Of a DNA stretch of 64,000 nt, positions 7,505 to 54,548 are shown in pieces. The DNA lies in the NCBI GenBank assembly GCA_964450605.1, contig CAYVEK010000001.1, positions 72,430 through 136,429 of the forward strand, in the 5' to 3' direction. A program made the translations under genes and the position numbers. Numbering within the stretch: position 1 is the stretch's first letter; every line of letters starts with the position of its first letter. The DNA comes from an uncultured Candidatus Saccharibacteria bacterium. GTDB lineage: Bacteria; Patescibacteriota; Minisyncoccia; Phycocordibacterales; CAIZLB01. The notes under the pieces were generated by a model that was not told where the DNA came from, ran no database searches, and worked only from the letters and a program-made list of their open reading frames with translations.

Positions 7505-10186
7505 ATGAAAAGACTAATTAATTTTATTTGCATTTTTGTACTTTCTTTTATTTTTACTTCTTCAGTACAAGCTGCTACGTATCACCCAAAAAGCATATCG
7601 TTCACAGCACCATCTACCGCATACAACGGTGGGGCAAGTGAGCCTGCTCAGATATTTTTAAAAACAAAAGAAACAGGAATACCTGCTAATACTTTTATAT
7701 ACGATATCGGTGTTGCAAAGGAGATACACTCAGGAAGTGTAGTTGAGTATCAAATACTAGGATCAGATCGTGTTACGTACGAGGCTCTTGAAAAGGATGC
7801 TTTTAAATATTCAGTAAAGATACCAAACCTTCTAGAAAAGAGTGAAGACACGTTCGTGGTATTTATAAAATCATATCGAGAAAATGATCCAGATTCAGAA
7901 TCGTTTGTTGTCTCAAAGTCTTTTAACATAAATCCAACAAATAAAAAAACAGTAACTCTTGATAGAGGTTTTATAGTCACATCAACAGGTGAGGCGTTTG
8001 GTCTATCTGTTGGTCCTACATTGTACGCTAAGGCTCAAAAATCCACACATGCAACTTCAGCAGAGATAGCGTTGCAGATGACCTCAAATTCTAAAGTTGA
8101 ATTGAAAGGAACAATGACATTTAAAAAGTTACGATCAAATGATTTTTCAGAAACAAAAGATGTTTCTCTAACAGTCTTCGATGGACAGGACATATATCCT
8201 CTAGAACTTCCTACATTTAACTATGAACCAGGTGTATACATGGGAGAGCTCAATCTCGGAGCTGAAGGTGTGCAGACTCCTCAGAAAATAAGCTTTCAGT
8301 ATATAATAGACGGTCCTATGGTATCTGCTGGCCAGATGTATTTTGTATCAGCAACAAGTACTGGTGTGTTGTTTAATATGCCAGTGTTTGGTCGGCCGGT
8401 TGATCTATATACAAATGGTAATGGCACAAGTACAGATGATGTAAAAGAAGTGTATAAAACTACACTGGTATTTATGGATAAAGAAGGTATGATTCTTCGA
8501 GAATATACAACTGAATTGGATTATAAAAAAGGTGTACGACAGATACTTGTACCAGATTTGAATTGGAAAAAAGTAAAAAGTGTAGCTATAAAAGTAGTTG
8601 ATGAAAATGATAAAACTATCTTTACAACAACTCAAAACCTTTCACTTCCTGTACCAGAAAGAGATATAACTCACCTTATCTATGCATTGTCTATTCTGCT
8701 ATTGGGTGCAAGTTGGTTTATGGTATCACGAAAAAAAGGAGTTATTGTTTGGACAACCATTTTCTTTGCATTGTTTGTTTCAGCATATGCTTTTGCGGCA
8801 TGGGCTCCGACTGATGCATCAGGTAATATTCTGAACGTAAACAATGATCCTTCGAAATACAAAACATATTTTACATTCAATGAAGATTTTACAACTGAAC
8901 CTATAAGTTGTGTTGAAGATACTGATGTGTTTCTAAAAATGGTATTTCTTGAGTGTCAAAACCGTGTCCGTGAATCTGCAAACTTCGGAGTATCTCGAGT
9001 TAGTATGCAAGACGCTCGAAACAGATACGCGTCGCTATCATATAATATTGCCTCAAGTACATGTAACGGCGGTGATAAAATCATTAGATGGAAAGGTCGA
9101 GAAATTGTAATTCCTTGCGGAAGTAGTGGACATGACAACTTCTTGTTTACAACTGATTTTATAAAAATAGCTACACTTCGAGGTCCTATACCAGCAAATT
9201 CAAAACTATATATATCTGTGGATGGTACAAAAGGTTTAAATGCAGAATATGCAATGCCTTTGGCACAATCATCATGTGATCGATGTTCAAACGTTGCAGG
9301 AGAGCAGATTGCAAAAGCATTTTCAGCCTACGGACGAGACTATTTCCATTCAACTGCCGACAACAAGCTGTACTTCGCGGCAACATCAGCTCTTGGTGCA
9401 AGTGTGTGTGCAGTAGATATGTGTGCCGACACTGAGGCACAAGAAGAATCTATGCCTGAAGGAAAAGTTTGGAATACAAATGGAACTTCTGGATATGAAA
9501 AATATTCATGTATAGAGCAGACTACTCAAACATGTACTTGTTCAGGGCGAACACAGGTATGTACAGAAAATGGAAATCAAACACAAACACCAAATGCATC
9601 ACAGTGTGCACTACAGGCATCTTGTACATTTGCAAAATCTGGCAACCAAGCAACATTCACATTCACTCCTCTAAGAGCTCTTGGAAACATAACATATTCT
9701 GGAGAAAACCCTGTAACCCGAACAATACCTACAAATGGTTCAGTAACAGAAACTATGAGTATTACGGATTCATTTGATGGCATGACAGCAAGTGCAAGTT
9801 GTACAGCATCGTTTAATGACCAAGATACAACAAATAATAACAATAACGGAAATCCTGACGGCGGTGATTGTGATCCTGCCGTAACAACCTGTACAGACAA
9901 TAACGGAACAGGTGGAAATCCAAGTTTGCCTCCGGTAATAAGTAAGTTCACTGCTACAAAGTTTGTCGAGCAAGGTCAGAGTTGCGTCTTTGCGTGGGAA
10001 GTGCAAAATGCTGCTTCATGTACACTCGGTGGTCAATCTGTAAATCCAAATGCAAGTAAAAGTTTCCCTACAACCGATGGTAAGAATATAACTAAGACTC
10101 TTTCATGTACAAACGGTGGAGACACTCCACAGGTCGTAAATCGTACCGCAACATGTGCTGTTAACCCAACAGTAAAACAAAACTAA
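7505..10186 (+). CDS. Large secreted/membrane-associated Cys-rich protein (893 aa), function unknown
   Basis: N-terminal signal peptide (LSFIFTSSVQAA), two mid-protein TM helices near aa 390-440, and a C-terminal half rich in Cys, Thr, Asn and Gly with poly-N/G linkers. Confidence 0.5.
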   Translation: MKRLINFICIFVLSFIFTSSVQAATYHPKSISFTAPSTAYNGGASEPAQIFLKTKETGIPANTFIYDIGVAKEIHSGSVVEYQILGSDRVTYEALEKDAFKYSVKIPNLLEKSEDTFVVFIKSYRENDPDSESFVVSKSFNINPTNKKTVTLDRGFIVTSTGEAFGLSVGPTLYAKAQKSTHATSAEIALQMTSNSKVELKGTMTFKKLRSNDFSETKDVSLTVFDGQDIYPLELPTFNYEPGVYMGELNLGAEGVQTPQKISFQYIIDGPMVSAGQMYFVSATSTGVLFNMPVFGRPVDLYTNGNGTSTDDVKEVYKTTLVFMDKEGMILREYTTELDYKKGVRQILVPDLNWKKVKSVAIKVVDENDKTIFTTTQNLSLPVPERDITHLIYALSILLLGASWFMVSRKKGVIVWTTIFFALFVSAYAFAAWAPTDASGNILNVNNDPSKYKTYFTFNEDFTTEPISCVEDTDVFLKMVFLECQNRVRESANFGVSRVSMQDARNRYASLSYNIASSTCNGGDKIIRWKGREIVIPCGSSGHDNFLFTTDFIKIATLRGPIPANSKLYISVDGTKGLNAEYAMPLAQSSCDRCSNVAGEQIAKAFSAYGRDYFHSTADNKLYFAATSALGASVCAVDMCADTEAQEESMPEGKVWNTNGTSGYEKYSCIEQTTQTCTCSGRTQVCTENGNQTQTPNASQCALQASCTFAKSGNQATFTFTPLRALGNITYSGENPVTRTIPTNGSVTETMSITDSFDGMTASASCTASFNDQDTTNNNNNGNPDGGDCDPAVTTCTDNNGTGGNPSLPPVISKFTATKFVEQGQSCVFAWEVQNAASCTLGGQSVNPNASKSFPTTDGKNITKTLSCTNGGDTPQVVNRTATCAVNPTVKQN

Positions 10187-36094: not shown

Positions 36095-36310
36095 ATGAGT
36101 AATCTAAACGGTCTGGGAAAACTTGCATGGGTATTAGTGGTAGTAGGAGCTCTTAACTGGGGGCTTGTAGGAGGATTTGATTTCAACCTTGTTGAAAAAC
36201 TTGTTGGAAAATGGCCAGTAGTTGTAAAAGTTGTATATGTTCTTGTTGGACTTTCAGCACTTGTTTCTCTTTTCGGTCTTGGAAAAAAGAGTGCTCAATC
36301 AACAATGTAA
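36095..36310 (+). CDS. DUF378-family small membrane protein (71 aa)
   Basis: Two TM helices with an ALNWGLVG motif. Confidence 0.55.
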   Translation: MSNLNGLGKLAWVLVVVGALNWGLVGGFDFNLVEKLVGKWPVVVKVVYVLVGLSALVSLFGLGKKSAQSTM

Positions 36311-36331
36311 TTTTGTAAAAATTATACACAG

Positions 36332-36361
36332 AAAAAACTCGCTTAAATGCGAGTTTTTTTC
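36332..36361 (+). terminator. Rho-independent terminator
   Basis: aaaaaactcgc-ttaaat-gcgagttttttt. Confidence 0.8.
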
Positions 36362-36400
36362 TTGTTATATATGATTATATTTAATATAATAAAAGAGTAC

Positions 36401-39400
36401 ATGCGCGTTTTGAAAAAGATCTACATAGGTGTATTCTTTTTGGGCACTTTATTAGTGTCACGTGCTATTCCTGTTGATGTGTATGGAAGTGTTTTAAATC
36501 ACCACATTGCTCAGGTTTTTGGTTTTTATAGTCAAAGTTTCGAAAGCGTAAAAACTGATATTAAGCAAGACATGAAAAAAGTTTCGGTTAAAGCTGAAAA
36601 ACAAACAGCTCAAGTATTAGCTGCTGTTGATTCGACTCAAAAAAGTTTATGGTCAAAAATGATTGATGTTTTGTCTGAACCTCTTGTACCATTGTTTACA
36701 CCCCAAGTTATAATCCCGATCACTGAAAAGAAAACTGAGGCTACTGTTCCTGTTAAAAAAGAAGAAAAGATTGTTCTTGATCCTAAACCAAAAGAGCAGG
36801 TTGTGATAAAGCCTGTTGCAAAGATTCCAAACACTAACGTTACTCAAAATTACTATTACACCATTTCACAGTCTCAAATTGAGAAAGCTGTTCAGTCACA
36901 AGTCGCAATCAACAAGCAGGAGTTGAATAAAATTCAAAATGATTTACGAGAATATGTAAATATGGTAGCTGGACGGCAATCAGATAGTTTTTCAAATAGT
37001 TTAAATAGAGCAAATGTTGTAACTGTTGTGACACAGTCTTCGGGTGGTAGTGGCGCAACTGCAAATTTTTCTGAAACAGCGACTGGGCTTGATTATGCGG
37101 GAGGAGTGTTATCAATCACTTCTGGATATGAGATACCTACAACTTCTTCATCTACCGCTTGGACATCATTCTACGATACACCTTCATCTCGAATCACTGC
37201 TGGAACAGGATTGTCATGGAGTGGAAATACTTTGAATGCGGTAGGTGGAGGATCTGGAACAGTTGGTTCTGGCACAGCTGGGCAGGTTGCGTTTTATGGA
37301 GCAAATGGAACCTCTGTAAGTGGTACATCCACAGTATTCTTTGCAAATGGAAATGTTGGTATCGGAACATCGTCTCCGTCATCTATACTACACCTACAGA
37401 GTGATCAAAATTCATCAACGGTATTAACAATACGAAATGATAATGCCGGTGCCAATGCTGATGCAGGAATCATGATCAGAGATGATGAAGGGGCCATTCT
37501 GTCTCTAGGTCTAGATGTCGATCAAACAGGAACAAAATCCTATCTGTGGAGTGTTGGAAATGATTTTAGAATAGGTGCGGGAAATAATATGGTTGCATCT
37601 TTTACTACGGATCAAAAATTTAAAGTATTGAGTCCGTATAACAATTACATGTCGATATATGGTGGAAGTGCAACAAGTATGAATCTTGTAAGTGATGCAG
37701 ATATGCTTATCAGAGCAGGTGGAGATCTCGGATCTAATACATATAGAACAATATACTATGATGGTGATACTCATATTTTTAGACAGGCAGGATCTCCGTG
37801 GACAGAGTACATGAGAATTGTTTCTGGAGGAAATCTTGGTATCGGTACGTCATCACCTTCGGCAAAACTTGATGTTTGGGGAAGTTTAAAGGTCGGAACA
37901 ACATCGACTCCGACACTATTTGTTAATACAACAGCTGGTCAAAACACAGGTTTATCCATCACAAATGATGTCTCACCAACAATCGCTTCTGCGGGTTCGT
38001 CTGCAAATGTTAATTTAAAGTTAACAACTAAAGGCACTGGGGGGTTGTTTCTTGATACAGGAGGAACTGGATCAATAAACTTTAGACCAAACGGTACGCA
38101 AACGATGACTATTTTGAGTACAGGAAATGTTGGTATTGGTACAACTACTCCTGCCTCACAGCTATATATAGCAGGAACTGATATTGGCCCCTCAAACTAT
38201 CTCGCAACTATAGAAAACAATAACACCGCAGGTTCATTTCCGACTCGAAACGGTTTGTTGATAAATGTTACTGGTACAAATGGCGGAGGCCAATCTGCTT
38301 CTCGTCTATTGAATATACAACAGTACGGTACAAGTCTGTTTTATGTAAACGGAGTAGGAGACGGTGTATTTAACGGGGGTATAACATCTGGAAGCATTAC
38401 ATCTTCAGGGGTGGTTTCTTCAGTTCGCTTAAGCGTTGTAAACAACAACACAACCGCCACAACAAGTGTGTTTAAGATAGTTTCAGGTCAAACAGCCCCT
38501 GTAACAGAGTGGCAAACTAGTACAGGTGCTCCGCTTGCAAGTTTGAGTGCTGGAGGAAACCTAGGACTAGGTATTGTTCCGTCAACATTCAAACTCGATG
38601 TTTCCGGCAGTTCAAGATTAGGTTATGTAAACATAAACAACTCAGCTGATATTATAATGTCGACACAAAATGCTGATCGACAATTTACTATACAAGGAAG
38701 TACAGCAACAACAGGTTCTGTTGCGGGAACGTATATAACCCTTGGTACCGCAAGTTCTGGTGAACAAAAAATAGTTTTTGGTACAAACGGTGGTGAGAAA
38801 ATGAGAATGGATCCATCAGGAAACCTTGGTATCGGAACAACGTCTCCAGCTGCAAAGCTTGATGTATGGGGCAACTTGAAAGTTGGAACAAATGCCGCAG
38901 GTACGCTTTTTGTTGATGCGGCAACAGCTCGAGTCGGTGTTGGAACAACAACACCGGGTGCAAAATTGACAGTTATAGGAGATATGCGTATAGGTTTTAA
39001 TGATGCTAACCAAGAGATATTGGGACATATTACAGGTGGTTTATTATTTGCGAATCAAGCTGCTCAAATAACTTCAGGTTCAGGTGTTTCAGTGAGATCA
39101 AATGGAACTTACGGATGGTCATCGGACACTGGTAGTCCAGGTTACAATGGTAAAGATACTTTCTTGAGTAGACCTTTTTCTTCAACTGTCGGAGTGTATC
39201 AATCTAATGGGACAACACTCGGTGGATTTCTGACAGGTGTTTTGTCTGTCGGAACAACCTCAACATCTTCAACTCTTTATGTTCAAGGTAACGGTTCAAA
39301 TAATCCATTTACTATCGCATCCTCAACAGGAACGTCAATGTTGAGTGTGTTAAGGAATGGAAATGTGGGTATTGGTACTAGCACACCTGAGGTAAAATTG

Positions 39401-41257
39401 GAGGTTGTTAATTCATCCGCAGCTCAGCTCCGACTTGGTTACGATAGTCAAAATGCAATAAATTTCGATGTGAATAATAGTGGTACGTTGCGTATTACAC
39501 CACTAAACAATTCTATTAGAAATTTGCTCGAGGTAAGAAATGGTGATGACGCGGCAATCCTTGTCGTGAATTCAATAAAACAGACAGCAATCAGCGGAAC
39601 AGTGTATATTACCTCTGACTCAGGCACAGAATACGGCACAAGAATCGGAAATGTAAACGATGGGGGTATAAGTTTTGGAGTTAACCCTACAAACTTTGCA
39701 GGAGAAATAAAGGCTGATTATGACGGGTCTCTCAGTCCGCTAGCTTTGAATCCTACAGGTGGAAATGTTGGTATCGGCACAACTTCTCCGTCAGCAACAC
39801 TTGATGTGTGGGGAAATTTGAATATTGGAACGGCATCAGTCCCCACACTGTTGGTTGATTCAAGTACAGGCTCTGTAGTTGTTTCAACTACCACACAAAC
39901 TGGAACAGTTTCCATTGGAGGAGATAAACAATATGCATTGTATACAGACACAGCATATTCAAACGGCGCATCAAGCTTTAGTTCTTATGGAGGATATTTC
40001 AAAAATTATCTAAACAGTGGTACTGCCGGATACTCATATGGAATCTACGCAGAAGGTTCTGCTGGAGGTGTAGATCCTGATGGCGCGTATGGAGTGTATG
40101 GTAAAGCAACAGGTTCTTATGCTCGCGCGGGAGTGTACGGTCTTTCAGAAGGGTCTGGTTCAGGTTTGTATGGATTTTCAAACTCTTCAACAGGTAGAGG
40201 ATTAACAGCAGAACAGTCAAACGCTAGTGGTTATGCTTTGTATACACTTGGAGGTAAAAACTATATCCAAAACAACTTAGGAATAGGAACTACAACTCCA
40301 GGTCAAAAACTTGTTGTTGTGGGTAATGCACAGTTTACAGGGGTTACGTCTGGCACGTATGCAAATGACTTAAACCTTTCAGCGGGAGGTGTTTTGACTA
40401 CAGCCGCTTCTGATATTCGTCTTAAGGAGAATCTCGTTGAACTATCTCCGGATGTATTATCAAAACTTTCAAATATAAAAGGATATACATTTAACTGGAA
40501 AGCTGATCCTGAGCGTAGAACAGATATCGGTGTGATTGCTCAAGAAGTAGAGAGTATATTTCCTGAAATTGTTTTCACAAACGCTACAGATGGATTTAAA
40601 GGTGTAAATTATTCTCGTTTATCTGTGTTACTGCTTAAAGGTTTACAAGAACAGCAGATGCTTCTAGGTTCATATACCTCTGACATATCAACACAGGCTA
40701 TACAAACAATAATTGACGAGGCAAAAAATGAAATAGAAAGAAATCCTATAACTGTTATAGGTGATAGGGCAACTCAAGGTGTCCGAACGGTCACTGATTT
40801 TGTAGCGGTTCGAGTAACTGCTGTTAAGGGTTATTTCGGAGAAATATTCACCAAAGAAATAACGACTGAAAAGATTTGTGTCACAAAGTCAAATGGATCA
40901 AAAGTTTGTGTAGATGGAGATCAACTGGAAAACATTATAAATAATTCAAACACACAGCCATCTGCAAGTCCTACACCTAGTCCTGCACAAACCGTAGGAA
41001 CTGTTCCAACAGAACCAGCTTCTGGTTCAGAGACTCAAGGAGAAACACCTGCTACAGAAAACTCAGGTGCAAGTGACACAATAATCGACACGGGAACAGG
41101 TTCATCCGCAGATAGTTCCTCCGCTTCATCTGATGCAGGATCTTCAAGTGGAGGCAGTTCGACGACAGGCGGCGACTCATCTTCTTCAGCCTCATCTGGT
41201 GATAGTAGCTCTTCCGGAGGTGGAGACTCTGGAGGAGGTTCTGTTAGTGCAGAATAA
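36401..41257 (+). CDS. Giant (about 1,618 aa) secreted tail-fibre-like surface protein with repeated GNVGIGT(S/T)SP..KLDVWG beta-repeat units, a C-terminal peptidase-S74 intramolecular chaperone domain, and an acidic Ser/Gly-rich tail
   Basis: Signal/TM at the N-terminus. Eight or more GNVGIGTxxPxxKL repeats. ASDIRLKENL...YTFNWK...IGVIAQEVESIFPEIV matches the endosialidase/tail-fibre chaperone autoprocessing domain. Start set at 36401 because 36347 lies inside the upstream terminator. Confidence 0.75.
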   Translation: MRVLKKIYIGVFFLGTLLVSRAIPVDVYGSVLNHHIAQVFGFYSQSFESVKTDIKQDMKKVSVKAEKQTAQVLAAVDSTQKSLWSKMIDVLSEPLVPLFTPQVIIPITEKKTEATVPVKKEEKIVLDPKPKEQVVIKPVAKIPNTNVTQNYYYTISQSQIEKAVQSQVAINKQELNKIQNDLREYVNMVAGRQSDSFSNSLNRANVVTVVTQSSGGSGATANFSETATGLDYAGGVLSITSGYEIPTTSSSTAWTSFYDTPSSRITAGTGLSWSGNTLNAVGGGSGTVGSGTAGQVAFYGANGTSVSGTSTVFFANGNVGIGTSSPSSILHLQSDQNSSTVLTIRNDNAGANADAGIMIRDDEGAILSLGLDVDQTGTKSYLWSVGNDFRIGAGNNMVASFTTDQKFKVLSPYNNYMSIYGGSATSMNLVSDADMLIRAGGDLGSNTYRTIYYDGDTHIFRQAGSPWTEYMRIVSGGNLGIGTSSPSAKLDVWGSLKVGTTSTPTLFVNTTAGQNTGLSITNDVSPTIASAGSSANVNLKLTTKGTGGLFLDTGGTGSINFRPNGTQTMTILSTGNVGIGTTTPASQLYIAGTDIGPSNYLATIENNNTAGSFPTRNGLLINVTGTNGGGQSASRLLNIQQYGTSLFYVNGVGDGVFNGGITSGSITSSGVVSSVRLSVVNNNTTATTSVFKIVSGQTAPVTEWQTSTGAPLASLSAGGNLGLGIVPSTFKLDVSGSSRLGYVNINNSADIIMSTQNADRQFTIQGSTATTGSVAGTYITLGTASSGEQKIVFGTNGGEKMRMDPSGNLGIGTTSPAAKLDVWGNLKVGTNAAGTLFVDAATARVGVGTTTPGAKLTVIGDMRIGFNDANQEILGHITGGLLFANQAAQITSGSGVSVRSNGTYGWSSDTGSPGYNGKDTFLSRPFSSTVGVYQSNGTTLGGFLTGVLSVGTTSTSSTLYVQGNGSNNPFTIASSTGTSMLSVLRNGNVGIGTSTPEVKLEVVNSSAAQLRLGYDSQNAINFDVNNSGTLRITPLNNSIRNLLEVRNGDDAAILVVNSIKQTAISGTVYITSDSGTEYGTRIGNVNDGGISFGVNPTNFAGEIKADYDGSLSPLALNPTGGNVGIGTTSPSATLDVWGNLNIGTASVPTLLVDSSTGSVVVSTTTQTGTVSIGGDKQYALYTDTAYSNGASSFSSYGGYFKNYLNSGTAGYSYGIYAEGSAGGVDPDGAYGVYGKATGSYARAGVYGLSEGSGSGLYGFSNSSTGRGLTAEQSNASGYALYTLGGKNYIQNNLGIGTTTPGQKLVVVGNAQFTGVTSGTYANDLNLSAGGVLTTAASDIRLKENLVELSPDVLSKLSNIKGYTFNWKADPERRTDIGVIAQEVESIFPEIVFTNATDGFKGVNYSRLSVLLLKGLQEQQMLLGSYTSDISTQAIQTIIDEAKNEIERNPITVIGDRATQGVRTVTDFVAVRVTAVKGYFGEIFTKEITTEKICVTKSNGSKVCVDGDQLENIINNSNTQPSASPTPSPAQTVGTVPTEPASGSETQGETPATENSGASDTIIDTGTGSSADSSSASSDAGSSSGGSSTTGGDSSSSASSGDSSSSGGGDSGGGSVSAE

Positions 41258-41300
41258 AAACGGTTTGAGTTTATTATAAAAACATGAGAATATAATATAT

Positions 41301-41819
41301 ATGCCATCTATAAAAGATATACAAAATACCACCAGTGAAGAGATAGTTGTTAAAGCTCCTCGAAAAAGAAAGGGGGGTAAATTTTCATTTCTATTATTTA
41401 TAGCTGTAGTGGTGTTAGGGGTCTTGTATTACCAACAGCATCAAGAGTTGTCTCGTTTAAAGGATCCAGCGTTACAGACAGAGTATGCTGAAAAACAGGT
41501 TAAAAAGGTTATAGATGATATGAAAAAGTATGTTGTTATTCCAGATGATGAGGAGCTAAAGTTGTTGGGTATTATAAGCAATGCAGAAGCTTTAAAAAAG
41601 GATCAGGCTTTTTATACAAATGTTGAAAATGGGGATTATGTATTCTTGCTTTCAAAAACTGCTAGAGCTTTGATTTGGAGACCTGAAGATAAAAAAGTTG
41701 TAAACTTTGGAGCTGCAAATCTTCAACCTGCACAACAACAGCAAGTAACACAACCTGCCCCTGTAAAAGAAGAGTCTGTAAAGGAAGTTAAGAAAGAAGA
41801 TAAAAAAACAGATAACTAA
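41301..41819 (+). CDS. Hypothetical membrane-anchored protein (172 aa)
   Basis: One N-terminal TM helix. The C-terminus is Gln/Pro-rich. Confidence 0.45.
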   Translation: MPSIKDIQNTTSEEIVVKAPRKRKGGKFSFLLFIAVVVLGVLYYQQHQELSRLKDPALQTEYAEKQVKKVIDDMKKYVVIPDDEELKLLGIISNAEALKKDQAFYTNVENGDYVFLLSKTARALIWRPEDKKVVNFGAANLQPAQQQQVTQPAPVKEESVKEVKKEDKKTDN

Positions 41820-41839
41820 AGCTGTCTAGTTGTCGACTG

Positions 41840-42946
41840 GTGTATAATATAGACATGGAACCAGTAACAACAATGCAAGTACAGTTACCAAAAGTTAAAA
41901 CTGGCATAAAGGATTTCTTCCTTTATGTCGGTTTTTTCGCTGTACTTTATACATTAATAGGTAATTTTATTAACTTCACTTTTTCAGTTATTAATTCTGT
42001 CTATCCGGATTATCAGTATGGCTTTAGAGATCCGTATGCAAGTAGTATACGTATGTCTGTTGCCATCATGATAGTTCTTACTCCTATTCTTATAGGTCTT
42101 GCTCGGAAAATGCATAAAGACATTCGAGAAAATGCAGACAGAGCAAATATCTGGGTTAGAAGATGGGGGTTTTACATTACGCTTGCTGTAACTATTATTA
42201 CACTTGCCAGTGATTTAGTTGCGCTTATTTATAACTTTTTAGGAGGAGAGATGTCTCCAAGATTTATTTGGAAAGTTGTAGTACTGGGAATTATCTCAGG
42301 GATCATGTGGTTATATACTCACAGTGAGATAAAAGGAACTTTTTCTGCAAGCCCTAAAAAGGGTCTTATAACTTCTATAGCTCTCGGTGTAAGTGTGATA
42401 GCTGTAGCGGTGATAGGTATATCACTTACAGGATCTCCGTCATTTTTAAGACAAGTAAAAGACGACAATACCCGAGAATCAAACCTTTCAACAATACAGT
42501 ACCGTGTTATAGATTACTATAGAAATAAAGGTGAGTTACCTATATCGTTGAGTAAGATAACAGAAGGTGATCCTAATGCGACAGTTCTTCCAGTTGATCC
42601 AAAGACAGGTGTAGAGTATGGATACAGCGTGCTCCCTCCAAAGATTCAAGATGGTGCTACATTTGTAAGTTTCAACTTGTGTGCTGATTTTGAACAAGAT
42701 GGAACTGCTGATGATAAAGTACAAAAGAGTGGGCGTGCAGGAGGGGTTGCTTCTCCGCAGGCGTTACCTATACCAACTGTCCCTATGTATGACTATGATT
42801 ATTATGGAGGTAAAACAAAAGCTGTCGACTATGATAATCATCCAAAAGGACAAAAATGTTTCGTAGTTGAGATTGATACTTCATCTAATCAATACAAACC
42901 ATACGATCAGCAGTCTAATCAGAAGCCGTACTATCCTACATACTAA
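41840..42946 (+). CDS. Polytopic membrane protein (DUF5671-like N-terminus) with a C-terminal extracytoplasmic domain bearing a pseudopilin-like segment
   Basis: Four or five TM helices. IQYRVIDYYRNKGELPISLSKI resembles the GspG/pilin globular-domain motif. Confidence 0.45.
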   Translation: MYNIDMEPVTTMQVQLPKVKTGIKDFFLYVGFFAVLYTLIGNFINFTFSVINSVYPDYQYGFRDPYASSIRMSVAIMIVLTPILIGLARKMHKDIRENADRANIWVRRWGFYITLAVTIITLASDLVALIYNFLGGEMSPRFIWKVVVLGIISGIMWLYTHSEIKGTFSASPKKGLITSIALGVSVIAVAVIGISLTGSPSFLRQVKDDNTRESNLSTIQYRVIDYYRNKGELPISLSKITEGDPNATVLPVDPKTGVEYGYSVLPPKIQDGATFVSFNLCADFEQDGTADDKVQKSGRAGGVASPQALPIPTVPMYDYDYYGGKTKAVDYDNHPKGQKCFVVEIDTSSNQYKPYDQQSNQKPYYPTY

Positions 42947-43002
42947 ACTAGATACTACTGATTGGTGTTTATTAACCATTAACTTAAAACATAATAAAAC
43001 GT

Positions 43003-43374
43003 ATGATCATCAAAAAAATCAAAACCACAAATATGGAATTGACGGATGCAATATCACAGTATGTTAACAAAAAGGTTGATGCGTTACATAAGTTTATAGA
43101 TCCCGATGAGGAGGCTTTGGCTGAGATAGAGATAGGTAGAACTACAAACCATCATCATAAAGGTGATGTATACAAAGCTGAAGTAAATCTATTCTACGGA
43201 AAGGATAATTTCCGCACAGTCATTATCAATGATGATTTGTATGCAGCTATCGATAAGATGAAAGAGGGTATATTAAATGAAGTTCGTCGTTCAAAACGAA
43301 AACGATTTCATTTACTCAAGAAAGGTCATCAAAAGATAAAAGACATACTTCGAGGTTGGAAAAGATCAAAGTAA
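43003..43374 (+). CDS. hpf: Ribosome hibernation promoting factor / RaiA family
   Basis: MELTDAI..YV..K...L.KF and the beta-alpha-beta-beta-beta-alpha pattern of YfiA/HPF. Confidence 0.75.
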   Translation: MIIKKIKTTNMELTDAISQYVNKKVDALHKFIDPDEEALAEIEIGRTTNHHHKGDVYKAEVNLFYGKDNFRTVIINDDLYAAIDKMKEGILNEVRRSKRKRFHLLKKGHQKIKDILRGWKRSK

Positions 43375-49327: not shown

Positions 49328-51841
49328 ATGATATCCATGAAAAGGTTCCTGAAAAACGCTACAGTCCTTGTTTTTTTCTGTGTTCCTTTTTTTAATACTC
49401 AGGCCTATGGAGAGTTTATGATGACTATAAACACAGATCCAAACGGCTCAAATGATTCAACTATAACTATACCTACTAATCCTAACTATGCGCCCAACTA
49501 TACAGTAGATTGGGGCGATGGAAATACTGATTCAGGTTTAATAGGTGATGCAAGCCATACGTACGCGACTGCTGGTACGTATCAAATTCTCATATCTGGA
49601 AATATTGGCGGATTGTATATTAACAACACTACAGGCATTAAAGAAAAAATTGTTTCTGTTGATCAGTGGGGAACTATACAATGGTTGAGTATGGAAAGAG
49701 CTTTTGCCGGTGTTCCGAGTCTAACTATTAATGCTGTAGATACACCCAACCTAAGTCAGGTGACGGATATGTCATATATATTTGCGAATATACCAACTTT
49801 TTTAGATGCAGGCGGACAGATAAATAATTGGAATACAAGCACTATTCAAACTTTAGAAGGCGCTTTTGTAAATGGTGGGTTTAATGCTGACATATCAGGC
49901 TGGAATGTTTCGAATGTGACTAATATGATAGCGACATTCTCTGGGGCAATATCTTTTAATCAGAATATATCAAACTGGACCACATCAGCTGTGACAAATA
50001 TGCAACAAATGTTTCAAGGAGCAACCTCTTTTAACCAGCCTATTGGTGGTTGGAATACTGGAAATGTAACTTCAATGCAGGGTATGTTTGCAAGTGCATC
50101 AAGTTTTAATCAAACATTGAGCTGGAATACAACTAATGTAACTGACATGTCTTCCATGTTTGAGGCGGCAAGTTCTTTTAATAGTAGTCTTTTTTTTGAT
50201 ACTTCAAATGTAACCAACATGTCATACATGTTCCACGAAGCGATAAATTTTAGTCAATCCTTGTATTTTTATACAAACAAAGTTCAAAACATGTCGTATA
50301 TGTTTGCAGATACTTTATATAACGACAACAGTATAACAGGGTGGAACACTGCAACTACAACAGATATGTCGTATATGTTTGCTAGAAACAGTGCATTTAA
50401 CCAGAACATATCAAACTGGAACACTGGAAAAGTAACAAATATGCAAGGCATGTTTCAAGACGCTATCTCTTTCAATCAAAACATCTCATCTTGGAATACT
50501 GCAAATGTAACTGACATGTCAACTATGTTCAGTGGTGCAACAAGTTTTAGCGCAAATATAGGTTCTTGGAATGTGTCCAAAGTTACAAATTTTTCATACA
50601 TGTTTTCAGCAGCCACAGCCTTTAATATTGATCTGAGTTCTTGGAATACAGCATCGTCAACAGCAATAAATGGGATGTTTGCAAATACAAACTTCAATCA
50701 ACCTCTTAACTCTTGGAATGTTTCTTCTGTAGAACAAATGTCAGATGTTTTTTATCAAGCTTCTTCTTTTAATCAACCTCTGAGTAATTGGAACACTTCA
50801 CATGTTACAAATATGACCAATATGTTCTACGGAGCGTCTTCATTTAACCAAGATCTAAGTTCTTGGAACTTTGAAGCTGTGAATTCTATTGATGATTTTT
50901 TGCGAGATGCCAATATGTCATATATTAATTATGATAAATTGCTAGAGGCTTGGGATACTCAAAATACCCAAAATGGTTTGAGTACGTATGTGTCTAACGG
51001 TTTGTATTGTAATAGTACTTCGTACAGATCACATCTGATTCTTACTAAAGGTTGGAGTATTATAGATGTGGGTACACCTGTAGGATGTCCAGCGCCATAT
51101 GTTGTAAATGTTACATCACCAAATGCGGATAGAAATTATGTGACAGGTGAGACAATTACGATTCAAGTTGTTTTTAGTGAGCCTGTAAATGTTGGAAGTG
51201 GTGGGGCTCCAATATTGCAACTAAGGACAGGAACATCTTCTGCGATTACTGCAAATCTGGTCGGAGGAGGTAATGGTACACATACACTTACGTTTTCTTT
51301 TGTGGTTTCTGCGTCACACAACAGTACTGACCTACAATACTTATCAACCTCTGCCCTGGTTGCCACCATAGAAGATGTTGCAACCAGCTCGCTTCCTGCA
51401 AACACAACCCTTCCAGCACTCAACTCTGTAAATAGTCTTGGAGGCAATAAAAATATCACAATCAATCAAACCGCTCCAGTTGTTTCTACAAGTAGTCCAG
51501 CACAGGCTCAAACAAACTCATGGTTCGGTGCAACTTCTTTCGGGGGAACTATAGAAAACATAAAACCTGCCGGAACGTGCAATGATTTTGTATTCAAAAA
51601 ATCACTTAAACTTGGACAAAAAGATAAAGAGGTTGTGGTGATAAAAAAGTTTTTAAACAAAAATCTTGGAACAAAACTAAATTCAAATACTGTGTTTGAC
51701 AAAGCAACTCAAAAAGCGGTTATTCGTTTTCAAGAAAAATATAGAAAAGATATACTAGAACCGACTCGGCTAAAGAAGGGAACGGGTATGTGGTATAGTG
51801 CAACTATTAAAAAAGCAAATCAGTTGGAGTGTGGTAAATAA
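49328..51841 (+). CDS. Surface protein with about 20 BspA-type/DUF285 leucine-rich repeats and a C-terminal peptidoglycan-binding-like domain
   Basis: Signal peptide. Repeating units of about 25 aa of the form NxxxMxxMFxxAxxFNQxIxxWNTSxVTNM. The C-terminus LKLGQKDKEVVVIKKFLN...FDKATQKAVIRFQEKY resembles PG_binding_1. Confidence 0.75.
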   Translation: MISMKRFLKNATVLVFFCVPFFNTQAYGEFMMTINTDPNGSNDSTITIPTNPNYAPNYTVDWGDGNTDSGLIGDASHTYATAGTYQILISGNIGGLYINNTTGIKEKIVSVDQWGTIQWLSMERAFAGVPSLTINAVDTPNLSQVTDMSYIFANIPTFLDAGGQINNWNTSTIQTLEGAFVNGGFNADISGWNVSNVTNMIATFSGAISFNQNISNWTTSAVTNMQQMFQGATSFNQPIGGWNTGNVTSMQGMFASASSFNQTLSWNTTNVTDMSSMFEAASSFNSSLFFDTSNVTNMSYMFHEAINFSQSLYFYTNKVQNMSYMFADTLYNDNSITGWNTATTTDMSYMFARNSAFNQNISNWNTGKVTNMQGMFQDAISFNQNISSWNTANVTDMSTMFSGATSFSANIGSWNVSKVTNFSYMFSAATAFNIDLSSWNTASSTAINGMFANTNFNQPLNSWNVSSVEQMSDVFYQASSFNQPLSNWNTSHVTNMTNMFYGASSFNQDLSSWNFEAVNSIDDFLRDANMSYINYDKLLEAWDTQNTQNGLSTYVSNGLYCNSTSYRSHLILTKGWSIIDVGTPVGCPAPYVVNVTSPNADRNYVTGETITIQVVFSEPVNVGSGGAPILQLRTGTSSAITANLVGGGNGTHTLTFSFVVSASHNSTDLQYLSTSALVATIEDVATSSLPANTTLPALNSVNSLGGNKNITINQTAPVVSTSSPAQAQTNSWFGATSFGGTIENIKPAGTCNDFVFKKSLKLGQKDKEVVVIKKFLNKNLGTKLNSNTVFDKATQKAVIRFQEKYRKDILEPTRLKKGTGMWYSATIKKANQLECGK

Positions 51842-54131: not shown

Positions 54132-54548
54132 ATGAGAAGAAAGTATAATCCCGGACTCGTGAAAGTAGTTGTAAAGAGATCAAGCGCAGGACTCGGACTA
54201 TTTGCAGGAGAGGACATCAAAAAAGGAACATGTATCATTGAGTACATCGGTCGACAGATAAAAGGGCAAGAAGAATATACCAGCAACAGTAAATATCTTT
54301 TTGAAGTAAATGCTCGTATGACTATAGATGGTCGAGACAGATCTAATACTGCTCGATATATCAATCATTCATGCAGACCTAATTGTGAGACTGAAACATA
54401 CAAAAGAAGAGTGTATATATTTGCGTATAAGAACATAAAAGCAGGGGAGGAACTTACATATGATTATGGAAAAGAATATTGGGGTGAGCATATTAAACCG
54501 ATAGGGTGTCGGTGTGTGAAGTGTCAGGAGAAAAAGGAAAACAAATAA
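54132..54548 (+). CDS. SET-domain protein-lysine methyltransferase with a post-SET Cys motif
   Basis: GLGLFA...NHSCRPNC...ELTYDY...GCRCVKC are canonical SET and post-SET motifs. 138 aa. Confidence 0.8.
   Translation: MRRKYNPGLVKVVVKRSSAGLGLFAGEDIKKGTCIIEYIGRQIKGQEEYTSNSKYLFEVNARMTIDGRDRSNTARYINHSCRPNCETETYKRRVYIFAYKNIKAGEELTYDYGKEYWGEHIKPIGCRCVKCQEKKENK

What the first reader, a model, noticed from the sequence alone, without database searches (positions are those of the whole stretch)
36401..41257. Roughly 1,620-aa phage-tail-fibre-like surface protein with an S74 intramolecular-chaperone autoproteolytic domain in a chromosomal cell-envelope context
After a signal peptide, the protein contains at least eight repeats of the unit GN(V/L)GIGT(S/T)(S/T)P..KLDVWG, which is typical of tail-fibre beta-helix/collagen-like stems. 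It then has a clear endosialidase/tail-fibre C-terminal chaperone domain (ASDIRLKENL...YTFNWK...IGVIAQEVESIFPEIV, at about nt 40400-40720). In phages this domain self-cleaves at the Ser of the S-D-x-R-L-K motif. Unusually, about 200 further residues follow the S74 domain, forming an acidic Ser/Gly/Asp-rich tail. The gene sits directly after the dcw/murG block and a DUF378 gene, not within a prophage. For a small-genome, possibly episymbiotic bacterium, this is a strong candidate host-attachment fibre.
Basis: partly seen in the sequence, partly recalled or inferred. Interest (0 to 1): 0.6.

Follow-up and report, generated by a model that had tools for sequence, protein, structure and literature searches.

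The report
Phage-like surface fibre in ultrasmall bacterium
A chromosomal gene of a small-genome (Patescibacteria/CPR-type) bacterium encodes a 1,618-residue secreted fibre whose stem matches the prey-recognition fibres of Bdellovibrio and whose self-cleaving chaperone matches those of phage tail fibres, followed by a widespread C-terminal add-on module that does not seem to have been described.

Summary
Window 36401-41257(+) encodes a 1,618-aa protein with an N-terminal Sec-type signal. It has nine GN(V/L)GIGT..P...L motifs (7 strict, against 0.18 expected by chance) and a Peptidase_S74 chaperone (Pfam E=1.2e-16; Ser1337/Lys1342; fold match to MyRF, K1F and GA-1 chaperones).

The motifs are not collagen-like. 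They lie 88-180 aa apart, and a profile of them matches only the five Bdellovibrio MAT fibre crystal structures (8ond, E=4e-16), so they are beta-helix capping loops.

The gene is not in a prophage. All 64 kb is housekeeping, and the gene occupies a conserved slot (MurG-DUF378-[fibre]-unk172-HPF) in related Patescibacteria assemblies. In that slot the fibre varies from 1,078 to 1,618 aa and is absent in one close relative.

The C-terminal extension is real: 282 aa follow the Ser, against 82-143 aa in most phages. It is typical of Patescibacteria (15/16 against 5/31 in other phyla). It comprises a ~90-aa helix/two-Cys hairpin module plus an acidic disordered tail. That module occurs in at least 2,211 protein clusters, often without S74, and matches no Pfam model or PDB sequence.

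The N-terminal base is unrelated to the MAT N-domain. Host attachment is plausible but untested. Verdict: a new variant of a known kind.

The parts
36331..36360 (+). Intrinsic-terminator-like hairpin ending the DUF378 transcript. It overlaps the upstream in-frame ATG at 36347.
   Evidence: 12-bp stem followed by a T-run.
36362..36390 (+). Promoter-like site (TTGTTA-17-TATAAT) directly upstream of the fibre start codon.
   Evidence: 10 of 12 matches. This is a consensus match only; the number of such sites in the region is not above the shuffled expectation.
36401..41257 (+). Fibre gene, 1,618 aa plus stop codon.
   Evidence: An identical protein (P0001) is on record at NCBI and Logan, on a 295-kb contig.
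36401..36481 (+). Sec-type signal peptide or signal anchor (aa 1-27). The likely cleavage site is after SRA (aa 21-23).
   Evidence: hydrophobic segment at aa 7-27, with n-region MRVLKK. Inferred only; no SignalP-type tool was available.
36491..37012 (+). Lineage-specific base (aa 31-204). It has two predicted long helices (aa 31-91 and aa 157-204) separated by a Lys/Pro/Glu/Val-rich disordered linker, and contains the conserved motif SLWSKMIDVLSEPLVPLF.
   Evidence: AF2 model with overall pLDDT 59, but 71-92 for helix 157-204; homologues are found only in the closest syntenic relatives; hhalign against the MAT N-domain gives 0.2% probability.
37046..37270 (+). Conserved unit of about 75-95 aa (aa 216-290), '...GLDYAGGVLSITSGYEIPTTSSSTAWTSFYDTPSSRITAGTGLSWSGNTLNA'. 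It recurs, often in tandem, in other secreted proteins.
   Evidence: 16 proteins match, at 43-66% identity over this unit.
37298..40408 (+). Stem and tip (aa 300-1336). It contains nine modules, each opened by a capping-loop motif GN(V/L)GIGT(S/T)xPxxxL (strict motifs start at aa 317, 477, 575, 719, 807, 987, 1121; degenerate copies have their G[IV]G core at aa 846 and 1294). It includes a Gly/Tyr-rich stretch at aa ~1180-1290.
   Evidence: motif count against shuffles; the module profile hits only Bdellovibrio MAT fibre structures (8ond 4.2e-16, 8ojn 3.5e-9, 8ol4, 8oml, 8on4); phrog_18345 and phrog_9942, both tail fibre.
40409..40681 (+). Peptidase_S74 intramolecular chaperone (aa 1337-1427). 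Catalytic Ser1337 (nt 40409-40411) and Lys1342. The predicted scissile bond is Ala1336|Ser1337.
   Evidence: PF13884, E=1.2e-16; pLDDT 89-97. Foldseek hits 7dc3 (E=5.8e-6), 3gw6 and 3gud.
40682..40945 (+). Post-chaperone C-terminal module (aa 1428-1515). It comprises helices, a beta-hairpin at aa 1491-1495/1501-1505 carrying the protein's only two cysteines (C1493, C1503), and the helix DQLENIINN.
   Evidence: both Cys are invariant in the module alignment; hairpin plus helix at pLDDT 82-93; 2,211 cluster representatives at E<=1e-3; no Pfam or PDB match.
40946..41254 (+). Low-complexity acidic tail (aa 1516-1618): 33 Ser, 18 Gly, 13 Thr, 7 Asp, 5 Glu, no Lys or Arg.
   Evidence: Equivalent but non-homologous S/T/P/G/D/E-rich tails follow the module in almost all carriers.
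41301..41819 (+). Neighbouring 172-aa single-pass membrane protein (TM at aa 24-46), probably co-transcribed. It belongs to the conserved backbone of the slot and is not shown to be a fibre partner.
   Evidence: no convincing terminator between the genes; the only terminator-like match nearby (41209-41237) lies inside the fibre CDS in its GC-rich tail-coding part. TM segment; adjacent to fibres in L001, L003, L004, L029, L161 and L164; retained in L163, where the fibre is absent.

Best explanation
This is a chromosomally encoded, Sec-exported fibre protein of a Patescibacteria-type bacterium.

Proposed mechanism:
1. Three chains assemble outside the cytoplasmic membrane into a long intertwined beta-helical fibre. 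The stem is built from about nine MAT-type modules, each with a capping loop.
2. The C-terminal S74 intramolecular chaperone (aa 1337-~1427) nucleates and checks trimerisation.
3. The chaperone then cuts the chain between Ala1336 and Ser1337, using the Ser1337/Lys1342 dyad.
4. This releases a 282-aa pro-fragment and exposes the distal tip (aa ~1120-1336) as the binding end.
5. The N-terminal, largely helical, lineage-specific base (aa ~30-215) holds the mature fibre at the cell surface.

The released fragment contains three parts: the chaperone, a conserved ~90-aa helix/two-Cys-hairpin module, and an acidic disordered tail. I infer that the module and tail are an assembly aid. They may register or stabilise the three C-termini and keep them soluble during folding outside the cell, where no cytoplasmic chaperones are available.

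The most likely role of the mature fibre is recognition of and adhesion to another cell (host or prey) or a surface glycan, as shown for the Bdellovibrio MAT fibres.

Shown here: domain identities, motif statistics, fold of the chaperone, homology of the stem to MAT structures, chromosomal synteny, and slot variability.

Inferred: export, trimerisation, cleavage, surface retention, role of the module, and binding function.
For: - S74 domain: Pfam E=1.2e-16 with the SDxxxK motif. The AF2 core has pLDDT 89-97. Foldseek's top hits are S74-type chaperones: MyRF 7dc3, K1F 3gw6 and GA-1 3gud.
- Stem: the protein matches Bd2133 (8ond) and 8ojn. A profile of its nine modules hits only the five Bdellovibrio MAT fibre structures, the best at E=4.2e-16. 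The motif corresponds to the published capping-loop consensus, and self-cleavage was demonstrated for Bd3182 (PMC10769870).
- Signal-like N-terminus.
- Chromosomal context: no phage genes in 64 kb. The slot MurG-DUF378-fibre-unk172-HPF is conserved in L001, L003 and L161/L162, with neighbours 50-89% identical.
- Fast, mosaic evolution typical of interaction proteins. The N- and C-termini are 36-49% identical to orthologues, while the stem is ~28% identical or not alignable. Length varies from 1,078 to 1,618 aa. The gene is absent in L163. A second paralogue is present in one assembly.
- Module: both Cys are invariant in the module alignment and are the only Cys in the protein. It is confidently predicted as a hairpin plus helix. 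It always lies near the C-terminus and is always followed by a low-complexity tail.
Against: - No experiment or proteomic evidence supports export, trimerisation or cleavage.
- Only single-chain models could be made. The stem and tip were low-confidence as a monomer (residues 1-60), and the N-terminal model is weak (pLDDT 59).
- The conserved N-terminal domain that defines Bdellovibrio MAT fibres is absent, so surface retention is unexplained.
- The fibre is dispensable in a close relative.
- No receptor or partner organism is known.
- The Cys module also occurs after non-S74 domains, so its role may be unrelated to S74 function.
- Resemblance of the module to a foldon is not significant.
Confidence: 0.55

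Rival explanations
1. S74 acts as a release switch, as in MyRF. The C-terminal module and acidic tail would tether the unassembled chains to the cell envelope. Trimerisation-dependent cleavage at Ser1337 would then free the fibre. After signal-peptide removal, the fibre would be a soluble secreted trimer (for example a diffusible lectin, bacteriocin-like binder or depolymerase) and not a cell-attached adhesin.
For: - The best structural match of the chaperone is the MyRF ICA domain. In MyRF the domain is internal and cleavage separates two functional halves (my own knowledge of MyRF; the paper notes the shared S74 features).
- The extension is conserved and specific to Patescibacteria.
- The N-terminus looks like a cleavable signal.
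- No recognisable anchor domain was found.
Against: - The extension has no transmembrane segment, no LPXTG-type motif and no known wall-binding domain.
- The tail sequence is not conserved.
- The N-terminal ~330 aa are conserved among orthologues, which suggests a functional base.
Confidence: 0.12
2. General envelope or matrix fibre. The protein would be a structural surface fibre or a non-specific adhesin, for example for biofilm or particle attachment, a protective coat, or a decoy for phages. It would not be a determinant of host or prey recognition.
For: - The gene sits beside cell-wall synthesis genes.
- It is absent from a close relative, which presumably still has the same lifestyle.
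- Homologous fibres occur in free-living Bacteroidota and Acidobacteriota.
- The literature on Saccharibacteria attributes host binding mainly to type IV pili.
Against: - Mosaic, hypervariable evolution in a fixed slot, with paralogue gain and loss, is typical of specific recognition proteins.
- The experimentally studied relatives are prey-recognition fibres and phage receptor-binding proteins.
Confidence: 0.15
3. Remnant or morphogenetic component of a phage, tailocin or contractile injection system. The fibre would be mounted on a particle encoded elsewhere.
For: - PHROG tail-fibre hits.
- 548 phage records share the S74 region.
- S74 fibres are known on extracellular contractile injection systems (paper list).
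Against: - The Sec-type signal does not fit cytoplasmic virion assembly.
- There are no structural, baseplate, sheath, integrase or lysis genes in 64 kb.
- The chromosomal slot is conserved across relatives.
- Phage matches are at most 40% identical and stop before the module.
- IMG/VR relatives are at most 48% identical and lack the module.
Confidence: 0.05

Closest known systems
Bdellovibrio bacteriovorus MAT (mosaic adhesive trimer) fibres, S74 subgroup, e.g. Bd3182; structures Bd2133 8ond, 8ojn, 8ol4, 8oml, 8on4 (Caulton et al. 2024, PMC10769870)
   Same: - Both are bacterial chromosomal genes with a signal peptide.
- Both have a long stem of beta-helix modules with the same capping-loop motif; the module profile hits only these structures.
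- Both carry a C-terminal S74 chaperone with SDxxxK.
- Both are large, mosaic and variable in length.
   Different: - The invariant ~130-aa beta-rich N-terminal domain of MATs is absent (hhalign 0.2%). It is replaced by a helical, lineage-specific base.
- Bdellovibrionota fibres end 123-136 aa after the Ser. This one has 282 aa, including an extra module and tail.
- The host organism is a Patescibacterium, which from general knowledge has no outer membrane. This phylum is not in the published MAT list.
Phage tail fibres and tailspikes with a C-terminal intramolecular chaperone (K1F endosialidase 3gw6, GA-1 neck appendage 3gud, T5 L-shaped fibre pb1)
   Same: - S74 fold and catalytic motif.
- A capping-loop/tip segment lies just before the Ser (query residues 1-129 match at 32-40% identity).
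- PHROG tail-fibre families match.
   Different: - This gene is not in a phage.
- It has a Sec signal.
- Phage and viral-contig S74 proteins end 82-143 aa after the Ser in 62 of 69 cases, and none has the Cys module.
MyRF (myelin regulatory factor) ICA domain, 7dc3
   Same: - It is the best structural match of the chaperone (E=5.8e-6).
- Its S74-type domain is internal and followed by further sequence, so cleavage separates two parts.
   Different: - MyRF is a eukaryotic membrane-bound transcription factor.
- Its C-terminal part has a transmembrane helix; here there is none.
- No homology exists outside the chaperone.
T4 fibritin foldon (C-terminal beta-hairpin trimerisation unit)
   Same: Both have a short C-terminal beta-hairpin following a long helix at the end of a trimeric fibre. 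Foldon-fused RSV F constructs appear among the weak Foldseek hits.
   Different: The hits are not significant (E 1.5-2.8, probability <=0.08). There is no sequence match to any PDB chain. Here the hairpin lies in the part predicted to be cleaved off. This is a resemblance only.

Membership tests
Peptidase_S74 / C-terminal intramolecular chaperone domain | Sequence match to PF13884 above the curated cutoff | tested here: met
   E=1.2e-16, 61.2 bits against a cutoff of 22, aa 1337-1391.
Peptidase_S74 / C-terminal intramolecular chaperone domain | Catalytic Ser-Lys dyad in the S-D-x-x-x-K motif | tested here: met
   S1337-D-I-R-L-K1342. Ser, Asp and Lys are invariant in the 26-sequence alignment.
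Peptidase_S74 / C-terminal intramolecular chaperone domain | Chaperone fold | tested here: met
   pLDDT 89-97; 7dc3 E=5.8e-6, plus 3gw6 and 3gud with probability up to 1.00. The model is a single chain, so trimer geometry was not assessed.
Peptidase_S74 / C-terminal intramolecular chaperone domain | Domain is the C-terminal end of the protein (about 80-145 aa after the Ser) | tested here: not met
   282 aa follow the Ser. Viral controls have 82-143 aa in 62 of 69 cases, and Bdellovibrionota have 123-136 aa.
Peptidase_S74 / C-terminal intramolecular chaperone domain | Trimerisation-dependent autoproteolysis | not testable with these tools
   This needs expression of wild type against S1337A, or proteomics.
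Bdellovibrio-type MAT fibre family | N-terminal signal peptide | tested here: met
   hydrophobic segment at aa 7-27 after MRVLKK, with an SRA|IP site. This was judged by inspection and hydropathy only.
Bdellovibrio-type MAT fibre family | Conserved ~130-aa beta-rich N-terminal domain directly after the signal peptide (present in all 21 MATs; PMC10769870) | tested here: not met
   BLAST finds no match to Bdellovibrionota fibre N-termini. hhalign of A4 against A3 gives probability 0.2%. The model predicts long helices instead.
Bdellovibrio-type MAT fibre family | Stem of trimeric beta-helix modules with capping loops (V-G-G/N-pi-x-x-P-x-x-x-L) | tested here: met
   Nine motif copies. The module profile hits only MAT structures, with 8ond at E=4.2e-16. 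The trimeric state itself was not tested.
Bdellovibrio-type MAT fibre family | Surface display and a role in recognising prey or host cells | not testable with these tools
   No cultured organism or experimental data are available.
Phage, prophage or injection-system tail fibre (virion component) | Encoded within a structural gene module (baseplate, tail, sheath, capsid, integrase) | tested here: not met
   only housekeeping genes in 64 kb; conserved chromosomal slot.
Collagen-like triple-helix stem | Long runs of G-X-Y triplets | tested here: not met
   the longest G-X-Y run is 3 triplets; no collagen Pfam hit.

The most novel reading that the evidence does not exclude
The ~90-aa helix/two-Cys-hairpin module with its disordered acidic tail is an undescribed, autonomous C-terminal domain family with at least 2,211 protein clusters. 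Patescibacteria and a few others append it to at least two different phage-derived auto-processing chaperone domains: S74, and a 'GRVPVKV...PGVAMKA' domain that may be Peptidase_G2-like. Under this reading it is the device that adapts phage-style, C-terminus-nucleated fibre trimerisation to Sec-dependent folding outside a cell with no outer membrane. It would work by disulfide-stabilised registration of the three C-termini before the pro-region is cut off. That would mark a whole repertoire of phage-derived fibres as host-interaction organelles of episymbiotic ultrasmall bacteria.
Probability: 0.25. Interest if true: 0.7.

Novelty: new variant of a known kind. Interest (0 to 1): 0.5.

Why it matters
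How ultrasmall episymbiotic bacteria (Patescibacteria/CPR) find and hold their host cells is largely unknown. Published work centres on type IV pili and unnamed adhesins.

This locus shows that these bacteria carry the same kind of phage-derived, self-cleaving, modular fibre that Bdellovibrio uses to recognise prey. Here it sits in a hypervariable chromosomal slot, with gain, loss and length variation among close relatives. That makes it a concrete candidate specificity determinant, testable by expression, binding assays and metaproteomics.

The work also defines a widespread C-terminal module absent from Pfam and the PDB. That module could be used to mine for such fibres, and it raises a testable question about how trimeric fibres are assembled outside the cell.

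If the fibre turns out to be a generic surface protein, the finding is an ordinary member of the large group that NCBI already annotates as 'tail fiber domain-containing protein'.

Tried and rejected
- Exact look-ups of the fibre, of P0001 and of MurG in the contig index found nothing, so the source record could not be named.
- The genome scan with the whole protein found no relative. Alignment A1 was too divergent to seed a scan. The tighter A2 alignment worked.
- NCBIfam has no model for the fibre. Rfam finds nothing in the window.
- Collagen-like stem: rejected.
- Membership of the Bdellovibrio MAT family in the strict sense: rejected, because the N-terminal domain is absent.
- unk172 as a dedicated fibre partner: weakened. 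It is adjacent to fibres in six loci. However, it remains in the slot of L163, which has no fibre, and it was detected in only 5 of 79 fibre loci.
- Foldon-like identity of the Cys hairpin: not supported statistically.
- Peptidase_G2 identity of the domain preceding the module in non-S74 carriers: inconclusive. There was one hit below the cutoff, and 8 of 10 carriers had no Pfam hit.
- The N-terminal structure prediction was low-confidence apart from one helix, so no fold search was run on it.
- My first regex undercounted S74 among module carriers (29 of 140). An HMM raised this to 64 of 140, and Pfam found one more that the HMM had missed (P0171). The non-S74 fraction is therefore an upper bound, and many short carriers are gene fragments.
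- Literature searches found no paper linking S74/MAT fibres to Patescibacteria. The library is incomplete, so this is absence of evidence only.
Full report
1. THE OBSERVATION

An ORF runs from 36347 to 41257 on the + strand. A terminator-like hairpin at 36331-36360 overlaps the first in-frame ATG. A promoter-like site (TTGTTA-17-TATAAT) lies at 36362-36390. An identical protein (P0001) is on record at NCBI and Logan, on a 295-kb contig.

The N-terminus (MRVLKK, hydrophobic aa 7-27, SRA|IP) looks like a Sec signal. This rests on inspection only.

The motif G[NRSD]xG[ILV]G occurs 7 times, plus two degenerate copies. In 2,000 shuffles the mean was 0.18 and the maximum 3. Spacing is 88-180 aa, and only three copies carry (K/T)LDVWG. 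The motif therefore marks the start of larger modules and is not a short tandem repeat. There is no collagen-like G-X-Y run longer than three triplets.

Pfam gives a single hit, Peptidase_S74, at E=1.2e-16 over aa 1337-1391, with the catalytic S1337-D-I-R-L-K1342. PHROGs gives tail-fibre families up to E=1.3e-31.

2. WHAT THE STEM IS

A sequence search of the PDB returned Bdellovibrio fibre proteins: Bd2133 (8ond) and 8ojn. These belong to the MAT (mosaic adhesive trimer) family described by Caulton et al. 2024 (PMC10769870). That paper describes surface-displayed trimeric beta-helix fibres used in prey handling. Thirteen of the 21 end in an S74 chaperone. Self-cleavage was shown for Bd3182 (S782A blocks it). 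Recurrent capping loops have the consensus V-G-G/N-pi-x-x-P-x-x-x-L.

A profile built from the nine modules of the window protein (A7) hits only the five MAT crystal structures in the whole PDB: 8ond 4.2e-16, 8ojn 3.5e-9, 8ol4 5.4e-8, 8oml 7.5e-6 and 8on4 4.9e-3. The repeats are therefore MAT-type capping-loop modules. A trimeric, intertwined beta-helix stem is the best-supported inference. Trimerisation itself could not be modelled, because only single-chain prediction was available.

3. THE CHAPERONE AND WHAT FOLLOWS IT

An AF2 model of aa 1277-1515 (26-sequence alignment A5) is confident for aa 1337-1421 (pLDDT 89-97). Its best PDB matches are S74-type chaperones: the MyRF ICA domain 7dc3 (E=5.8e-6), K1F endosialidase 3gw6 and GA-1 3gud.

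After the chaperone the model predicts:
- a long helix (to aa ~1447);
- a second, low-confidence helix (aa 1457-1481);
- a confident beta-hairpin (aa 1491-1495 and 1501-1505) followed by a short helix (DQLENIINN), at pLDDT 82-93.

The hairpin strands carry C1493 and C1503. These are the only two cysteines in the protein, and both are invariant in the alignment of this module.

Aa 1516-1618 form an acidic low-complexity tail with 33 Ser, 18 Gly, net charge -12 and no Lys or Arg. So the 'about 200 further residues' are not one tail. They are the rest of the chaperone, a structured ~90-aa module, and then ~100 aa of disorder.

4. IS THE EXTENSION UNUSUAL?

Lengths after the catalytic Ser, by source:

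| Source | Result |
|---|---|
| 62 homologues with a recognisable SDxx(hydrophobic)K | Bimodal: 28 at ~83-150 aa, 34 at 189-418 aa |
| Taxon-labelled genome loci, Patescibacteria | 15 of 16 have >=180 aa |
| Taxon-labelled genome loci, other phyla | 5 of 31 have >=180 aa (Fisher p=2.8e-7) |
| All Bdellovibrionota fibres in that set | 123-136 aa |
| IMG/VR viral contigs | 62 of 69 at 82-143 aa; none has the Cys motif |
| Cultured phages | 548 records match, at <=40% identity; none covers the query past about residue 166 |

The extension is therefore unusual relative to phages and Bdellovibrio, but typical of Patescibacteria.

Caveats: the loci were recruited by similarity to the tip/S74 region of this protein. 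Taxon labels are those of the deposited assemblies. Ser positions were found by regular expression.

5. THE MODULE IS AN AUTONOMOUS FAMILY

A 49-position profile of the Cys module (A6) was searched against 1.84 billion cluster representatives. It found 2,211 proteins at E<=1e-3 and 169 at E<=1e-10. The match nearly always lies 50-180 aa from the C-terminus. It is followed by an S/T/P/G/D/E-rich tail that is not itself conserved.

Only 64 of the 140 newly retrieved proteins among the 150 best hits carry S74 by HMM, and Pfam found one more that the HMM missed. Many of the others share a different upstream domain: 'ADLAE.Y...G(I/V)VST.PG...LSGRVPVKV...GDYLT.SS.PGVAMKA...VIGQAL...FVKN'. That domain is followed by the same long-form module, including the helical part that is also present in the window protein.

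One such protein has a sub-threshold Peptidase_G2 hit (E=2.7e-4). Eight of ten have no Pfam hit at all. The module has no Pfam model and no sequence relative in the PDB even at E<=10.

Other homologues replace it after S74 with alternative units: a second two-Cys motif, or a beta-sandwich-like segment.

A foldon-like role (a C-terminal hairpin registering three chains) is suggested only by topology and by non-significant Foldseek hits to foldon-fused constructs. It remains a hypothesis.

6. THE CELL-PROXIMAL END

All MATs share a ~130-aa beta-rich N-terminal domain. I recovered this domain from Bdellovibrionota, Acidobacteriota, Gammaproteobacteria and unclassified loci ('LxYQGRL...G.P...F...LW.E...G.F...LG').

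The window protein has nothing like it:
- BLAST finds only Patescibacterial relatives for aa 1-330.
- Profile-profile comparison gives 0.2% probability.
- A database search with aa 1-330 found only 16 proteins, all matching just the unit at aa ~216-330.

The AF2 model of aa 30-335 is weak (mean pLDDT 59). It predicts two long helices, aa 31-91 and aa 157-204 (the latter at pLDDT 71-92), separated by a disordered Lys/Pro-rich linker.

The protein therefore works like a MAT fibre in its stem and its maturation domain. By the published definition it is not a member of that family. How it is held at the surface is unknown.

7. CONTEXT AND EVOLUTION

I scanned about 40 of the window's larger ORFs against Pfam. 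Those with hits are housekeeping or ordinary cellular genes: PBP2, UvrC, S41 and M50 proteases, ProRS, Obg, GatB, RmuC, NusB, a DEAD-box helicase, ScpA/B, an S11 carboxypeptidase, MraY, FtsW, MurG, DUF378, DUF5671, HPF, two-component genes, PepF and a sigma factor. A few gave no hit. None is a phage, tailocin or injection-system gene. No other ORF in the window has capping motifs.

The order ScpA-ScpB-S11-MraY-FtsW-MurG-DUF378-fibre-unk172-(DUF5671)-HPF-RR-HK-PepF recurs in related assemblies (L001, L003, L161/L162). Neighbours are 50-89% identical.

The fibre itself is far more divergent:
- Only the N-terminal ~330 aa and the C-terminal ~330 aa align, at 36-49% identity.
- The stem aligns at ~28% identity or not at all.
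- Lengths are 1,078, 1,421, 1,432 and 1,618 aa.
- One assembly has a second paralogue upstream of HPF.
- L163 is as close to the window as the others (MraY 89%, MurG 82%) but has an empty slot: DUF378, then 85 bp, then the unk172 homologue, then HPF.

The fibre is thus an accessory, rapidly diversifying occupant of a fixed chromosomal slot. This pattern is expected for an interaction or specificity protein and not for a prophage.

The downstream 172-aa single-pass membrane protein is probably co-transcribed and is often adjacent to fibres. Because it persists without the fibre, I treat it as backbone and not as a demonstrated partner.

8. TAXONOMY AND PRIOR KNOWLEDGE

The nearest loci are in assemblies labelled Candidatus Saccharibacteria, Parcubacteria or Doudnabacteria. 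More distant relatives of the tip/S74 unit occur in Bacteroidota, Bdellovibrionota, Acidobacteriota and others. Named homologues include 'tail fiber domain-containing protein' from Paceibacterota, so annotation pipelines already recognise the general type.

The published selection of MAT-like fibres covers predators in Oligoflexia, the PVC group, Alpha- and Deltaproteobacteria, the FCB group and OP3. It includes no Patescibacteria. Key papers on Patescibacterial host interaction do not mention such fibres.

9. MECHANISM AND VERDICT

The best-supported account is a Sec-exported, trimeric, MAT-like fibre. It matures by S74 autoproteolysis at A1336|S1337. This releases a 282-aa pro-fragment made of the chaperone, the module and the tail, and it exposes a distal binding tip. 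The probable role is cell or glycan recognition. Confidence in the architecture and maturation account as a whole is about 0.55; the specific host- or prey-recognition role is less certain.

Rivals are:
- a MyRF-like release switch that yields a soluble secreted trimer (0.12);
- a generic envelope or matrix fibre (0.15);
- a phage or injection-system component (0.05).

The finding is a new variant of a known kind. The genuinely new elements are the Patescibacterial setting with a different base, the hypervariable slot, and the widespread undescribed post-chaperone module. Interest: 0.5.

Noticed in passing
window 49328-51841 (+): An 837-aa surface protein made of DUF285/PARCEL repeats (Pfam E=4e-168), with weak, sub-cutoff matches to PKD and peptidoglycan-binding domains. 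It is a second large envelope protein, 8 kb downstream of the fibre.
   Followed up: partly
window 7505-10186 (+): An 893-aa ORF with no Pfam or NCBIfam hit, set among housekeeping genes.
   Followed up: partly
L163:7692-9173 (compare window 36095-43374): A close relative (MraY 89%, MurG 82% identical) has an empty slot: DUF378 is followed after 85 bp by the unk172 homologue and then HPF. Both the fibre and the DUF5671 gene are missing. This is a presence/absence polymorphism of the fibre.
   Followed up: yes
L002:17-4024, same assembly as L001: A second fibre paralogue (>1,335 aa, with S74 plus the Cys module) lies directly upstream of HPF in a related assembly, so fibre copy number varies in this slot.
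   Followed up: partly
Homologues P0007, P0016, P0076, P0104, P0113, P0115; and P0017, P0027, P0036, P0052, P0055, P0073: Alternative units follow S74 in place of the Cys-hairpin module. One is a different two-Cys motif ('YC..i..G.W.k..G.C'), which looks foldon-like by eye. The other is a beta-sandwich-like segment. Both are followed by low-complexity tails.
   Followed up: no
Proteins P0123, P0129, P0139, P0144, P0212, P0233 and others: Many carriers of the Cys module lack S74. They have instead a conserved 'LSGRVPVKV...GDYLT.SS.PGVAMKA...VIGQAL...FVKN' domain. One gives a sub-threshold Peptidase_G2 hit. This may be a second class of auto-processing chaperone paired with the same module.
   Followed up: partly
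L067 (Nanoarchaeia assembly) and L072 (Methanosarcinales assembly): Giant ORFs (>3,500 and >4,669 aa in the held stretch) in archaeal assemblies carry 34-37 capping-loop motifs of the same type. No S74 motif was seen in the held stretch.
   Followed up: no
L059 (Methylocystis suflitae NLS-7 isolate assembly, 49.6-kb contig, GC 0.59): A 1,147-aa S74 fibre with a 293-aa post-Ser region and the Cys module lies in an alphaproteobacterial isolate assembly. It is either a non-Patescibacterial carrier or a horizontal transfer.
   Followed up: partly
window 54132-54548 (+); L160, L161 and L163 equivalents: A small SET-domain protein (PF00856 in the related loci) is conserved in this neighbourhood across relatives. 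The window ORF itself was not scanned.
   Followed up: no
window 37046-37270 (aa 216-290 of the fibre): The unit '...SGYEIP.T.S.T.W..FY.TPS.RITAGTGLSWSGNTLNA' recurs, often as tandem ~95-aa repeats, in unrelated 450-575-aa secreted proteins that lack S74 (P0264-P0279).
   Followed up: partly
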